A stretch of DNA of 64,000 nt from Escherichia coli (GTDB lineage: Bacteria; Pseudomonadota; Gammaproteobacteria; Enterobacterales; Enterobacteriaceae): the NCBI RefSeq assembly GCF_030384885.1, contig NZ_CP128613.1; one strand, 5' to 3'. Below are positions 4,674 to 29,350 of the stretch, one piece after another. The first letter of the stretch is position 1. Every line of letters starts with the position of its first letter. The notes under the pieces are model-generated. The model saw nothing but the letters and a program-made list of their open reading frames with translations, was not told the origin of the DNA and ran no database searches. The translations under genes and the position numbers were made by a program.

Positions 4674-5570
4674 ATGGACATTTTTATTTCGAAAAAGATG
4701 CGCAATTTCATTTTATTAGCGCAAACCAATAATATTGCCCGGGCGGCAGAAAAAATCCATATGACGGCTTCGCCATTTGGCAAAAGCATTGCCGCGCTGG
4801 AAGAACAAATTGGCTATACGCTATTTACCCGCAAAGATAATAATATCAGCCTCAATAAAGCCGGGCAGGAACTGTATCAAAAACTGTTCCCGGTTTATCA
4901 ACGGCTTTCTGCGATTGATAATGAAATCCATAACTCAGGACGTCGTTCACGAGAAATTGTGATAGGCATAGATAATACTTATCCGACCATTATTTTTGAT
5001 CAGTTGATTAGTCTCGGAGATAAGTACGAAGGCGTGACCGCCCAGCCAGTTGAGTTCAGCGAAAACGGCGTTATCGATAATCTTTTTGACCGTCAGTTAG
5101 ATTTTATAATCTCCCCACAGCATGTATCTGCACGAGTTCAGGAACTGGAAAACCTGACTATCAGTGAACTACCACCGCTGCGATTGGGCTTTCTCGTTTC
5201 TCGCCGTTATGAAGAGCGACAAGAGCAAGAGTTGCTTCAGGAGCTACCGTGGCTACAAATGCGCTTTCAGAACCGGGCCAACTTCGAAGCAATGATTGAT
5301 GCGAATATGCGTCCTTGTGGGATCAATCCCACCATTATTTATCGACCTTACAGTTTTATGGCCAAAATCAGCGCCGTGGAGCGCGGACATTTTCTGACGG
5401 TGATCCCGCATTTTGCCTGGCGACTGGTGAATCCGGCAACGCTGAAATATTTTGATGCGCCGCACAAGCCGATGTATATGCAGGAATATCTTTATTCAAT
5501 CAGAAATCATCGATATACCGCCACGATGCTTCAGCATATTGCTGAAGATCGTGACGGGACGAGTCATTAA
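4674..5570 (+). CDS. ygfI: LysR-family transcriptional regulator YgfI (298 aa)
   Basis: N-terminal HTH (NIARAAEKIHMTASPFGKSIAALEEQIG) and LysR substrate-binding domain; sits next to the sbm operon. Confidence 0.85.
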   Translation: MDIFISKKMRNFILLAQTNNIARAAEKIHMTASPFGKSIAALEEQIGYTLFTRKDNNISLNKAGQELYQKLFPVYQRLSAIDNEIHNSGRRSREIVIGIDNTYPTIIFDQLISLGDKYEGVTAQPVEFSENGVIDNLFDRQLDFIISPQHVSARVQELENLTISELPPLRLGFLVSRRYEERQEQELLQELPWLQMRFQNRANFEAMIDANMRPCGINPTIIYRPYSFMAKISAVERGHFLTVIPHFAWRLVNPATLKYFDAPHKPMYMQEYLYSIRNHRYTATMLQHIAEDRDGTSH

Positions 5571-13446: not shown

Positions 13447-14679
13447 ATGGCAAAGGTATCGCTGGAGAAAGACAAGATTAAGTTTCTGCTGGTAGAAGGC
13501 GTGCACCAAAAGGCGCTGGAAAGCCTTCGTGCAGCGGGTTACACCAACATCGAATTTCACAAAGGCGCGCTGGATGATGAACAATTAAAAGAATCCATCC
13601 GCGATGCCCACTTCATCGGCCTGCGATCCCGTACCCATCTGACTGAAGACGTGATCAACGCCGCAGAAAAACTGGTCGCTATTGGCTGTTTCTGTATCGG
13701 AACAAACCAGGTTGATCTGGATGCAGCTGCAAAACGCGGGATCCCGGTATTTAACGCACCGTTCTCTAATACGCGCTCTGTTGCGGAGCTGGTAATTGGC
13801 GAACTTCTGCTGCTATTGCGCGGCGTACCGGAAGCCAACGCTAAAGCGCACCGTGGTGTCTGGAACAAGCTGGCAGCTGGCTCTTTTGAAGCGCGCGGCA
13901 AAAAGCTGGGTATCATCGGCTATGGTCATATTGGTACACAGTTGGGCATTCTGGCTGAATCGCTGGGAATGTATGTTTACTTTTATGATATTGAAAACAA
14001 ACTACCGCTGGGCAACGCCACTCAGGTACAGCATCTTTCTGATCTGCTGAATATGAGCGATGTGGTGAGTTTGCATGTGCCAGAGAATCCGTCTACCAAA
14101 AATATGATGGGCGCGAAAGAGATTTCGCTAATGAAGCCCGGCTCGTTGCTGATTAATGCCTCGCGCGGAACGGTGGTGGATATTCCGGCACTGTGCGATG
14201 CGCTGGCAAGCAAGCACCTGGCTGGAGCGGCAATCGACGTATTCCCGACGGAACCGGCGACTAACAGCGATCCGTTTACCTCTCCGCTGTGCGAGTTCGA
14301 CAACGTCCTTCTGACGCCACATATTGGCGGTTCGACTCAGGAAGCACAGGAGAATATCGGCCTGGAAGTTGCAGGTAAATTAATCAAGTACTCTGACAAT
14401 GGCTCAACGCTCTCTGCGGTGAACTTCCCGGAAGTATCGCTGCCACTGCATGGTGGGCGTCGTCTGATGCACATCCACGAAAACCGTCCGGGCGTGCTAA
14501 CTGCGCTCAACAAAATTTTTGCCGAGCAGGGCGTCAACATCGCCGCGCAATATCTGCAAACTTCCGCCCAGATGGGTTATGTAGTTATTGATATTGAAGC
14601 CGACGAAGACGTTGCCGAAAAAGCTCTGCAGGCAATGAAAGCTATTCCGGGTACCATTCGCGCCCGTCTGCTGTACTAA
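13447..14679 (+). CDS. serA: D-3-phosphoglycerate dehydrogenase (410 aa)
   Basis: Begins MAKVSLEKDKIKFLLVEGVHQKALESLRAAGYTNIEFHKGALDDEQLKESIRDAHFIGLRSRT; NAD-binding GxGxxG and C-terminal ACT domain. Confidence 0.96.
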   Translation: MAKVSLEKDKIKFLLVEGVHQKALESLRAAGYTNIEFHKGALDDEQLKESIRDAHFIGLRSRTHLTEDVINAAEKLVAIGCFCIGTNQVDLDAAAKRGIPVFNAPFSNTRSVAELVIGELLLLLRGVPEANAKAHRGVWNKLAAGSFEARGKKLGIIGYGHIGTQLGILAESLGMYVYFYDIENKLPLGNATQVQHLSDLLNMSDVVSLHVPENPSTKNMMGAKEISLMKPGSLLINASRGTVVDIPALCDALASKHLAGAAIDVFPTEPATNSDPFTSPLCEFDNVLLTPHIGGSTQEAQENIGLEVAGKLIKYSDNGSTLSAVNFPEVSLPLHGGRRLMHIHENRPGVLTALNKIFAEQGVNIAAQYLQTSAQMGYVVIDIEADEDVAEKALQAMKAIPGTIRARLLY

Positions 14680-14698
14680 ATCCCCTTCTCTGAAAATC

Positions 14699-14731
14699 AA
14701 CGGGCAGATCACTGACTTGCCCGTTTTTTTA
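14699..14731 (+). terminator. Rho-independent terminator after serA
   Basis: Hairpin CGGGCAGATCACTGACTTGCCCG followed by T7. Confidence 0.8.
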
Positions 14732-14863
14732 TCCCTTCTCCACACCGTTGCCGCATTGCGCATTCTACTTTGCGAGTCTGCTCCAGAAAATAAATCAAAG
14801 TCAGATCAATGCGTTGTGTTTATTTAATGGGGATTTACGATGGCAGGGCAGCATGGGGCTGTA

Positions 14864-15006
14864 ACGGTAAAGCCCTCACCGAAGCGAGGGCTTGAAGGAG
14901 AAGGGTTATGATGCGACTTGTCATCATACTGATTGTACTGTTACTCATAAGTTTCCCAGCTTATTAACAGTCAGTCACAGGGGAGGAGCAATCCTCCCTT
15001 ACCCTT
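14864..15006 (-). ncRNA. sibC: SibC (RygC) antisense antitoxin sRNA, about 140 nt; ends approximate
   Basis: Minus-strand promoter-like TTGACA (15042-15037), 17-nt spacer, TAATTT (15019-15014); hairpin AGCCCTCACCGAAGCGAGGGCT at 14871-14892 near the predicted 3' end; fully covers ibsC on the opposite strand. Confidence 0.6.
14908..14967 (+). CDS. ibsC: Type I toxin IbsC, 19-aa hydrophobic peptide (MMRLVIILIVLLLISFPAY)
   Basis: ATGATG start 8 nt downstream of AAGGAG; a single TM-like hydrophobic peptide matching the Ibs toxin family; located between serA and fau, where K-12 has ibsC/sibC; too short for the ORF track. Confidence 0.75.
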   Translation: MMRLVIILIVLLLISFPAY

Positions 15007-15067
15007 ACTCACTAAATTAGGTTAAAGAATCAACGATGTCAATCAGGGCGATGCAGGTGTGTCGCCC

Positions 15068-15616
15068 TCACCACTCCCAGACTTTCGACGGCGTAACTAC
15101 TGCAGGAAGTGGAATATCCCACTCTTCAACGGGGAGTTTTTCCACCAACTGACAATCATGCGCATAACCCACCGGTTGCATTTGATAGCGCTGCCAGTTT
15201 TGTAAGGTCCGATCATAAAAACCACCGCCCATTCCCAGGCGCTGACCGTACTCATCAAAGGCGACCAGCGGTGTGATCAACACGTCTAATCGGGAAAGGG
15301 GTAGCACGTCACGCACATCCAGTTTTGGCTCATGGATCTTCAACCAGTTCATCACCAGTTCGCTTTGCGGATGGTAATTCAGGAACAGCAAATTACCGGC
15401 ACTAAAGGGATGCAAAACTGGAAGATATACGCGCTTACCGGCGCGCCAGAGTTGTTCTATGAGTGGCTGGGTGTCGAGTTCGCCATCAAAAGAGAGGAAT
15501 ACAGCGACCGTATGTGCCATCACCACCGGGGGATAAGTCATCATCCGGGTAGCGGCTTGTTGACCCATTTCCTGCTGTTGTTCCGGCGTTAACGCACGAC
15601 GACGTTGCCGAATCAT
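15068..15616 (-). CDS. fau: 5-formyltetrahydrofolate cyclo-ligase (182 aa; in-frame upstream ATG at 15670 would give 200 aa)
   Basis: Sequence matches YgfA/Fau; immediately downstream of ssrS in the zapA-ssrS-fau transcription unit. Confidence 0.85.
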   Translation of the reverse strand: MIRQRRRALTPEQQQEMGQQAATRMMTYPPVVMAHTVAVFLSFDGELDTQPLIEQLWRAGKRVYLPVLHPFSAGNLLFLNYHPQSELVMNWLKIHEPKLDVRDVLPLSRLDVLITPLVAFDEYGQRLGMGGGFYDRTLQNWQRYQMQPVGYAHDCQLVEKLPVEEWDIPLPAVVTPSKVWEW

Positions 15617-15688
15617 TTTGCGGATTTCTTGTCGGGATAATGTCAGTGGGATTTCTGGTAGTTGCGTCATGGCTGGTGCCAGATAAGA

Positions 15689-15874
15689 AGGGAATCTCCG
15701 AGATGCCGCCGCAGGCTGTAACCCTTGAACCCTTGGTTCAAGGTGAATGTGTCGTCACAGTTTTAAGGCTTCTCGGACGGACCGAGCATGCTCACCAACC
15801 GCGGAGCGCCACATTCTTGTGGTATGAAATATCGGCTCAGGGGACTGGCCCGCTTGCGAACATCTCAGAGAAAT
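15689..15874 (-). ncRNA. ssrS: 6S RNA (SsrS), regulator of sigma70-RNA polymerase
   Basis: Reverse complement reads AUUUCUCUGAGAUGUUCGCAAGCGGGCCAGUCCCCUGAGCCGAUAUUUCAUACC ... GGCAUCUCGGAGAUUCCCU, the E. coli 6S RNA sequence; ends within a few nt. Confidence 0.93.

Positions 15875-29169: not shown

Positions 29170-29350
<181 letters not shown>

What the first reader, a model, noticed from the sequence alone, without database searches (positions are those of the whole stretch)
14864..15006. Type I toxin-antitoxin locus ibsC/sibC hidden in the serA-fau intergenic region
A 19-codon ORF (MMRLVIILIVLLLISFPAY) with a strong RBS is invisible to the 60-aa ORF track. It is fully overlapped on the opposite strand by a promoter-to-hairpin unit of about 140 nt, consistent with the SibC antisense RNA. 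Ibs peptides are membrane-depolarising toxins repressed by their Sib RNAs. The final residues read FPAY here; I recall FSAY for the K-12 copy but this is from memory.
Basis: partly seen in the sequence, partly recalled or inferred. Interest (0 to 1): 0.5.

Follow-up and report, generated by a model that had tools for sequence, protein, structure and literature searches.

The report
Known E. coli ibsC/sibC toxin-antitoxin locus
This is the well-known ibsC/sibC type I toxin-antitoxin pair of Escherichia coli, sitting in its usual place between serA and fau; it is ordinary, and its one protein difference from the K-12 reference (Pro17 instead of Ser17) is the commoner of the two main alleles among complete E. 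coli genomes.

Summary
The observation and the interpretation both hold. A 19-codon ORF (14908-14967, +) encodes MMRLVIILIVLLLISFPAY, with an AAGGAG Shine-Dalgarno 7 nt upstream. It matches Pfam Ibs_toxin end to end (47.3 bits against a cut-off of 27). The opposite strand matches Rfam SIB_RNA (139.8 bits against 56, E 8e-29). Transferring the K-12 annotation through a gap-free alignment puts SibC at 15006 to 14866 (-), 141 nt. The gene order rpiA-serA-ibsC/sibC-fau-ssrS-zapA is that of K-12. The locus is present in 5424-5425 of 5426 complete E. coli genomes, and RefSeq already annotates this exact sequence as IbsC.

The only coding difference is codon 17, AGC in K-12 and CCA here. These three adjacent bases are SibC nt +49 to +51, inside the +46 to +53 core of target-recognition domain 1. 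An exact 30-mer carrying CCA occurs in 2789 genomes and the K-12 30-mer in 2165, so the window carries the commoner allele.

Small corrections: the SibC 3' end is 14866, not 14864. The sibC promoter (15014-15042) and the ibsC promoter and 5' UTR (about 14814-14848) lie outside the stated range.

Nothing here is new. The only open point is a minor one: whether the recognition-domain allele changes cross-talk with the SibD/ibsD pair.

The parts
14908..14967 (+). ibsC coding sequence: 19 codons plus stop, MMRLVIILIVLLLISFPAY
   Evidence: Translation. Pfam PF13956 Ibs_toxin, 47.3 bits against a cut-off of 27, profile positions 1-19 of 19. It differs from K-12 ibsC at 3 of 60 nt. RefSeq annotates the same coordinates as ibsC in an identical genome.
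14895..14900 (+). ibsC Shine-Dalgarno AAGGAG, 7 nt upstream of the ATG
   Evidence: Read directly. Identical to K-12.
14866..15006 (-). SibC antitoxin sRNA, 141 nt: +1 at 15006, 3' end at 14866
   Evidence: K-12 sibC (b4446, NC_000913.3 3056851-3056991) mapped through gap-free alignment A1. Rfam RF00113 at 139.8 bits. Minimum-free-energy fold -53.9 kcal/mol, z -4.84.
15014..15042 (-). sibC promoter: -35 TTGACA at 15042-15037, 17-nt spacer, -10 TAATTT at 15019-15014; one SNP against K-12 at 15023
   Evidence: Read. The Rfam model starts at this TTGACA. The position relative to the K-12 SibC 5' end comes. The simple consensus scan does not call it, because the -10 matches only 3 of 6. The promoter assignment is an inference.
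14870..14893 (-). SibC terminator hairpin: 10-bp stem, UUCG loop, short U tract
   Evidence: Fold (SibC nt 114-137). The SibC 3' end lies 4 nt downstream according to the K-12 annotation. The simple terminator scan does not call it because the U tract is short.
14939..14961 (-). SibC target-recognition domain 1 (TRD1, SibC +46 to +68; core +46 to +53 at 14954-14961). It contains the allelic triplet at 14956-14958, which is codon 17 of ibsC
   Evidence: TRD1 coordinates from Han et al. 2010, PMC2943612, mapped as window = 15007 - n. The numbering was checked against the paper's G47, G49, U51 and A54 in the K-12 sequence. In the fold, +47 to +54 is a hairpin loop.
14892..14908 (-). SibC target-recognition domain 2 (TRD2, SibC +99 to +115), complementary to the ibsC Shine-Dalgarno and start codon
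   Evidence: Coordinates from PMC2943612. The sequence is identical to K-12 and differs from the K-12 A, B, D and E paralogs at 8-11 of 20 alignment columns.
14814..14848 (+). Inferred ibsC promoter (-35-like TTGTGT at 14814-14819, -10 TACGAT at 14836-14841) and transcription start at about 14848; the mRNA of about 159 nt would run 14848-15006
   Evidence: Inference. PMC2943612 states that the ibsC mRNA is 159 nt with an 18-nt 5' overhang beyond the SibC duplex, and 141 + 18 = 159. The region is identical to K-12. The figure showing the mapped start was not available.

Best explanation
This is the chromosomal ibsC/sibC type I toxin-antitoxin locus of Escherichia coli.

The + strand gives a short ibsC mRNA, inferred to be about 159 nt from about 14848. 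It encodes the 19-residue hydrophobic inner-membrane peptide IbsC.

The - strand gives the 141-nt SibC RNA (15006 to 14866). SibC is complementary to the whole ORF, the Shine-Dalgarno sequence and most of the 5' UTR.

By analogy with the K-12 locus, SibC makes first contact through two independent sites. TRD1 is a hairpin loop that pairs with the 3' part of the ORF. TRD2 is a single-stranded stretch that pairs with the Shine-Dalgarno and start codon. Pairing then spreads, translation is blocked, and the partial duplex becomes an RNase III substrate, so IbsC is not made. If SibC is lost or outrun, IbsC inserts into the inner membrane and depolarises it, which causes growth arrest or death.

Shown here: the sequence anatomy, the family membership of both genes, the synteny, and the allele frequencies. 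Inferred from K-12 experiments: transcription, repression and toxicity.

The window carries the Pro17 (CCA) allele rather than the K-12 Ser17 (AGC) allele. Because the pair is encoded in cis, toxin codon 17 and SibC +49 to +51 change together and complementarity is kept.
For: - RNA family: Rfam SIB_RNA at 139.8 bits against a gathering score of 56, E 8.3e-29, full-length.
- Peptide family: Pfam Ibs_toxin at 47.3 bits against 27, positions 1-19 of 19.
- Peptide sequence confirmed; K-12 has FSAY.
- The 388-bp intergenic region aligns without gaps to K-12 with 10 differing columns. The Shine-Dalgarno, TRD2, terminator hairpin and ibsC promoter region are all identical.
- Same gene neighbourhood as K-12: rpiA, serA, ibsC, fau, ssrS, zapA.
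- Present in 5425 of 5426 (388-nt query) and 5424 of 5426 (143-nt query) complete E. coli genomes, and annotated there as ibsC or as an Ibs family toxin.
- Both RNAs fold much better than shuffles (z -4.84 and -5.31), and the TRD1 core falls in a hairpin loop.
- Mechanism: PMC2943612 for TRD1, TRD2, partial duplex, RNase III and specificity; PMC8309996 for depolarisation, psp induction and residues 6-19 being needed for toxicity.
- Allele counts by exact 30-mer: CCA in 2789 genomes and AGC in 2165.
Against: No direct evidence of transcription, repression or toxicity for this allele can be obtained with these tools. The simple sigma-70 and terminator scans call neither the sibC promoter nor its terminator, because the -10 matches only 3 of 6 and the U tract is short; the K-12 locus has the same -10 hexamer and U tract and is experimentally expressed. 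NCBIfam gave no hit for the peptide padded to 20 aa. Residue 17 lies in the C-terminal segment (residues 6-19) reported as needed for toxicity, and Pro17 was not tested. However, K-12 IbsB and IbsE also have Pro at this position.
Confidence: 0.97

Rival explanations
1. The locus is a decayed, non-functional relic of ibsC/sibC. The Ser17-to-Pro change, or the SNP in the promoter spacer, would have inactivated the toxin or the antitoxin.
For: Residue 17 lies in the C-terminal segment reported as necessary for IbsC toxicity. One SNP lies at -17 of the sibC promoter, window 15023. Type I loci are known to degenerate in some strains (PMC2887945).
Against: The ORF, Shine-Dalgarno, start and stop codons, both inferred promoters and the terminator are intact and, apart from one spacer SNP, identical to K-12. 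The CCA triplet matches the Rfam consensus at that position. Pro17 occurs in K-12 IbsB and IbsE. The allele is carried by 2789 of 5426 genomes, which is not what a recent inactivating lesion would look like.
Confidence: 0.03
2. It is not IbsC proper but another paralog, or a gene-conversion product of one, sitting at the serA-fau site. The FPAY ending is the same as in K-12 IbsB.
For: The last four residues, FPAY, equal those of K-12 IbsB. Three adjacent base changes in one codon are unusual for independent point mutation and could reflect a micro-conversion or paired indels. PGAP labels some carriers of the CCA 30-mer only as 'Ibs family toxin'.
Against: The ORF differs from K-12 ibsC at 3 of 60 positions, against 8 to 17 for ibsA, B, D and E. 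TRD2 is identical to ibsC and differs from the others at 8-11 of 20 columns. None of the four K-12 paralogs has CCA at codon 17: they have CAG, CCC, GCA and CCG. Synteny is that of ibsC. A conversion tract, if there was one, would cover at most a few bases and would not change the identity of the locus.
Confidence: 0.03
3. A chance short ORF next to an unrelated hairpin.
For: Short ORFs are abundant by chance: 79 ORFs of at least 20 aa overlap 4 kb.
Against: Rfam E 8.3e-29, Pfam E 1.8e-12, conservation in essentially all E. coli genomes, and experimental characterisation of the orthologous K-12 locus (PMC2943612).
Confidence: 0

Closest known systems
E. coli K-12 ibsC (b4665) / sibC (b4446, formerly RygC or QUAD1c) type I toxin-antitoxin pair
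   Same: Same genomic position between serA and fau. Same sizes: 141-nt sRNA and 19-codon ORF. Identical Shine-Dalgarno, TRD2, terminator hairpin and ibsC promoter region. Within the 141-nt unit, 137 of 141 nt are identical.
   Different: Codon 17 is CCA (Pro) instead of AGC (Ser), which changes SibC +49 to +51 from GCU to UGG inside the TRD1 core. SibC +30 is U instead of A. There is one SNP at -17 of the sibC promoter. These are common allelic differences: CCA in 2789 genomes and AGC in 2165.
Paralogous pairs ibsA/sibA, ibsB/sibB, ibsD/sibD and ibsE/sibE of E. coli K-12
   Same: Same architecture and family. The peptides are 68-84% identical to the window peptide. Pro17 is shared with IbsB and IbsE.
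   Different: They sit at other loci (yegL-mdtA and yqiK-hldE). They differ from the window ORF at 8-17 of 60 positions and have a clearly different TRD2.
Other cis-antisense type I systems (hok/sok, ldr/rdl, symE/symR)
   Same: A small toxic protein repressed by an antisense RNA that base-pairs with the toxin mRNA (background from PMC2943612).
   Different: Sib covers the entire ORF and translation-initiation region of its target and uses two independent recognition domains. There is no sequence relationship to those families.

Membership tests
Ibs toxin family (Pfam PF13956) | An 18-19-residue hydrophobic peptide matching the Ibs_toxin profile above its gathering score | tested here: met
   47.3 bits against a cut-off of 27, E 1.8e-12, profile positions 1-19 of 19. 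The query was padded with one upstream codon to reach the tool's 20-aa minimum. The nine columns invariant across the window peptide and the five K-12 Ibs peptides (M1 M2 I6 I7 L11 L12 S15 F16 Y19) include the window's residues.
Ibs toxin family (Pfam PF13956) | A translatable ORF with a Shine-Dalgarno sequence and a start codon | tested here: met
   AAGGAG at 14895-14900, 7-nt spacer, ATG at 14908, TAA at 14965-14967.
Ibs toxin family (Pfam PF13956) | Overexpression is toxic and depolarises the inner membrane | not testable with these tools
   Reported for K-12 IbsC (review PMC8309996). The Pro17 allele is untested.
ibsC orthologue specifically | Located between serA and fau, and closest in sequence to K-12 ibsC among the paralogs | tested here: met
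   Gene order. It differs from ibsC at 3 of 60 ORF positions, against 8-17 for the other paralogs.
Sib RNA family (Rfam RF00113) | Match to the covariance model above the gathering score | tested here: met
   139.8 bits against 56, E 8.3e-29, model positions 1-147 of 147.
Sib RNA family (Rfam RF00113) | Encoded antisense to an ibs ORF and overlapping it completely, including its translation-initiation region | tested here: met
   SibC at 14866-15006 (-) contains ibsC at 14908-14967 (+) and the Shine-Dalgarno at 14895-14900.
Sib RNA family (Rfam RF00113) | Its own promoter and intrinsic terminator, giving a transcript of about 140 nt | tested here: inconclusive
   TTGACA, 17 nt, TAATTT and a 10-bp GC-rich hairpin are present at the positions that fit the K-12 RNA ends. 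The generic consensus scan calls neither. Transcription itself cannot be tested here.
Sib RNA family (Rfam RF00113) | Two target-recognition domains, TRD1 in a hairpin loop and TRD2 single-stranded next to the terminator | tested here: met
   In the predicted fold, +47 to +54 is a hairpin loop and +107 to +113 is unpaired between the closing stem and the terminator. This matches the P5 loop and J1/7 of PMC2943612. It is a structure prediction only.
Sib RNA family (Rfam RF00113) | Represses the cognate ibs mRNA | not testable with these tools
   Shown for K-12 SibC and ibsC by co-transformation and gel shift (PMC2943612).

The most novel reading that the evidence does not exclude
The Ser17/Pro17 dimorphism may be more than a neutral toxin polymorphism: it could act as a natural specificity allele of the antitoxin.

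The three adjacent changed bases are SibC +49 to +51, in the 8-nt core of TRD1, which helps Sib RNAs tell cognate from non-cognate ibs mRNAs. With CCA, the TRD1 target of ibsC differs from K-12-type ibsD at only 2 of 23 nt (1 of 8 in the core). With the K-12 AGC allele the differences are 4 of 23 and 3 of 8.

At least 699 complete genomes must carry both ibsC-CCA and ibsD-GCA, because 2789 + 3336 exceeds 5426. NZ_OZ392432.1 appears in both lists.

In those strains SibC and SibD might partly cross-repress each other's toxin mRNAs through TRD1. That would make the C and D pairs partly redundant.
Probability: 0.12. Interest if true: 0.3.

Novelty: already known. Interest (0 to 1): 0.07.

Why it matters
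It matters little beyond annotation. The locus is a textbook type I toxin-antitoxin pair that ORF-length filters routinely miss, so recognising it is correct and useful for annotating the window. RefSeq already annotates this exact allele as IbsC. The one point a specialist might take up is the common two-allele polymorphism in the core of SibC's first target-recognition domain. In many strains it brings the C pair within two mismatches of the D pair. This offers a natural test of how much sequence difference is needed for Sib RNAs to discriminate between paralogous targets.

Tried and rejected
- The generic promoter and terminator scan over 14600-15200 found nothing. I do not count this against the locus, because the K-12 -10 hexamer (TAATTT, 3 of 6) and the short U tract are the same in the expressed K-12 copy.
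- NCBIfam gave no hit for the peptide padded to 20 aa. Pfam did.
- The primary paper (Fozo et al. 2008, PMC2597788) and the 2008 review (PMC2593563) are not held. Toxicity and depolarisation are therefore cited second-hand through PMC8309996 and PMC2943612.
- I first translated 14909-14968, which is one base out of frame. This was corrected.
- I tested the idea that ibsC TRD1 alleles co-vary with ibsD alleles so as to keep at least 4 mismatches. In K-12 and in strain 2013C-4282 the nearest paralog at the yqiK-hldE locus is indeed 4 mismatches away. The genome counts refute any such rule: at least 699 genomes combine ibsC-CCA with K-12-type ibsD, which leaves only 2 mismatches.
- I looked for a second Sib/Ibs copy in the window. 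There is none: Rfam gives one hit, and the motif search finds only the known site plus one 2-mismatch match at the level expected by chance.
- I did not locate the ibsA/ibsB locus of strain 2013C-4282, because the coordinates could not be predicted.

Full report
**Observation**

Window 14908-14967 on the + strand translates to MMRLVIILIVLLLISFPAY followed by a stop. My first attempt was one base out of frame. AAGGAG lies at 14895-14900, 7 nt before the ATG. The ORF lister cannot show the ORF because its minimum is 20 aa.

On the opposite strand, an Rfam scan of the whole window gives a full-length match to SIB_RNA (RF00113) at 15042-14892. The score is 139.8 bits against a gathering score of 56, E 8.3e-29. 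The peptide, padded with one upstream codon to reach the tool's 20-residue minimum, matches Pfam Ibs_toxin (PF13956) over all 19 profile positions. The score is 47.3 bits against a cut-off of 27. A 19-codon ORF alone would not be significant, but these family matches are.

**Identity and coordinates**

The 388-bp serA-fau intergenic region is 100% identical to 14 complete E. coli chromosomes. It is found in 5425 of 5426 complete E. coli genomes, where the feature under the match is annotated ibsC. In strain 2013C-4282 the gene order is rpiA, serA, ibsC, fau, ssrS, zapA, ygfB, pepP. K-12 MG1655 has the same order and annotates both sibC (b4446, 141 nt) and ibsC (b4665).

The window aligns to K-12 without gaps and with 10 differing columns out of 388. 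The K-12 annotation therefore transfers exactly:

- SibC is window 15006 (+1) to 14866 on the - strand.
- ibsC is 14908-14967.

It does not include the sibC promoter, which I read as TTGACA at 15042-15037, a 17-nt spacer, and TAATTT at 15019-15014. The Rfam model in fact begins at that TTGACA. The range also omits the ibsC promoter and 5' UTR.

Han et al. 2010 state that the ibsC mRNA is 159 nt with an 18-nt 5' overhang beyond the SibC duplex (PMC2943612). Since 141 + 18 = 159, this places the start at about 14848, downstream of a TACGAT -10-like hexamer at 14836-14841. That step is an inference, because I could not see the figure.

**Structure**

SibC folds to -53.9 kcal/mol (z = -4.84, 0 of 200 shuffles as stable). 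The fold has a closing stem, three internal hairpins and a 10-bp terminator hairpin with a UUCG loop at 14870-14893. The inferred ibsC mRNA folds to -64.2 kcal/mol (z = -5.31). A generic promoter and terminator scan calls none of these elements. The -10 matches only 3 of 6 and the U tract is short, but the -10 hexamer and U tract are identical in the experimentally expressed K-12 locus.

**Mechanism (inferred from K-12 work, not tested here)**

- Sib RNAs are about 140 nt, are constitutively expressed, and span the entire ibs ORF and translation-initiation region (PMC2943612).
- SibC has two independent target-recognition domains. TRD1 is +46 to +68, in the P5 loop, and targets the 3' part of the ORF. 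TRD2 is +99 to +115, in J1/7, and targets the Shine-Dalgarno and start codon.
- Pairing spreads from these contacts into a partial duplex that RNase III can cut.
- In window coordinates TRD1 is 14939-14961 and TRD2 is 14892-14908.
- Overexpressed IbsC depolarises the inner membrane within minutes and induces the psp operon. Residues 6-19 are needed for toxicity (review PMC8309996).
- A 2025 preprint reports that Salmonella IbsA inhibits the Fo sector of ATP synthase. This may refine the idea of a simple membrane-damaging toxin, but it concerns another paralog and species.

**The FPAY/FSAY difference**

The only coding difference is codon 17, AGC in K-12 and CCA here, with all three bases changed.

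Position 17 is the most variable position of the family. It is Ser, Gln, Pro, Ala and Pro in K-12 IbsC, A, B, D and E respectively. The CCA triplet matches the Rfam consensus at that position.

Mapped onto SibC, the triplet is +49 to +51: GCU in K-12 and UGG here. This lies inside the +46 to +53 segment that Han et al. found essential for TRD1 function. I checked the numbering against their G47, G49, U51 and A54. One of the three natural changes, U51G, was made artificially in that study and did not impair repression of K-12 ibsC. Because the pair is encoded in cis, both strands change together and complementarity is preserved.

**Population frequency**

An exact 30-mer centred on the codon occurs in 2789 of 5426 complete genomes for the CCA allele and in 2165 for the K-12 AGC allele. 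Each occurs once per genome, apart from three extra places for the K-12 30-mer (2168 places in 2165 records). The window therefore carries the commoner allele. RefSeq already names its product IbsC (WP_071525914.1). Nothing about the locus is novel.

**A small lead that I partly tested**

The CCA allele brings the TRD1 target of ibsC closer to K-12-type ibsD: 2 of 23 mismatches and 1 of 8 in the core. For the K-12 allele the figures are 4 of 23 and 3 of 8.

In strain 2013C-4282, which has the window's ibsC allele, the two paralogs at the yqiK-hldE locus carry CAG-GCT and CCG-ACT at this site. Each is 4 mismatches from ibsC, the same minimum distance as in K-12. That suggested compensatory co-variation.

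The counts refute it as a rule. The K-12-type ibsD 30-mer is in 3336 genomes. At least 699 genomes must therefore combine it with ibsC-CCA, and NZ_OZ392432.1 is visibly in both lists. TRD2 stays very different between the C and D pairs, at 9 of 20 alignment columns including a 3-nt indel. Whether TRD1 similarity in those strains allows cross-repression is untested. I give it a low probability and modest interest.

**Rivals**

- A decayed relic is unlikely. All elements are intact and the allele is carried by half of the species sample.
- Replacement by another paralog is excluded by sequence distance and synteny. The window ORF differs from ibsC at 3 of 60 positions, against 8-17 for the others, and TRD2 is identical to ibsC. 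A micro-conversion limited to the codon cannot be excluded, but none of the four K-12 paralogs has CCA there.
- Chance is excluded by the family scores.

**Verdict**

Observation confirmed and interpretation supported. The locus is already known, and interest is low.

Noticed in passing
window 15691-15874 (-): 6S RNA gene ssrS (Rfam RF00013, 138.1 bits) lies immediately upstream of fau on the same strand, as in K-12. This is a known arrangement.
   Followed up: partly
window 29178-29255 (-): Rfam match to naRNA4 (RF02564, 69.8 bits against a gathering score of 59.5), a family of nucleoid-associated RNAs derived from REP elements. I did not examine its context.
   Followed up: no
window 15068-15670 (-): The fau ORF is 200 aa here and in the PGAP annotation of the identical strain, but K-12 annotates 182 aa (549 nt). 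This is most likely only a difference in which start codon was chosen; the two sequences were not compared over this stretch.
   Followed up: no
window 15023 (-17 of the sibC promoter spacer): Single SNP in the sibC promoter spacer. On the SibC strand it is A here and G in K-12 and in the Rfam consensus. The effect on promoter strength is unknown.
   Followed up: no
window 14956-14958; L004:1315-1317: Codon 17 of the Ibs peptides is the hypervariable position of the family and coincides with the SibC TRD1 core. At least 699 complete E. coli genomes combine ibsC-CCA with K-12-type ibsD-GCA, which leaves only 2 of 23 TRD1 mismatches between the C and D pairs.
   Followed up: partly
L006:5582-5722 and L006:5959-6099 (strain 2013C-4282, yqiK-hldE intergenic region): The two Ibs/Sib units at this locus are not arranged as in K-12. 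The yqiK-side copy has the K-12 ibsE-type TRD1 (CCG ACT), and the hldE-side copy has CAG at codon 17. This suggests shuffling or conversion among the tandem paralogs.
   Followed up: partly
E. coli genome collection: One plasmid-borne copy of the ibsC/sibC region was counted among the 20,395 records. One or two of the 5426 genomes lack a match. Neither was inspected.
   Followed up: no
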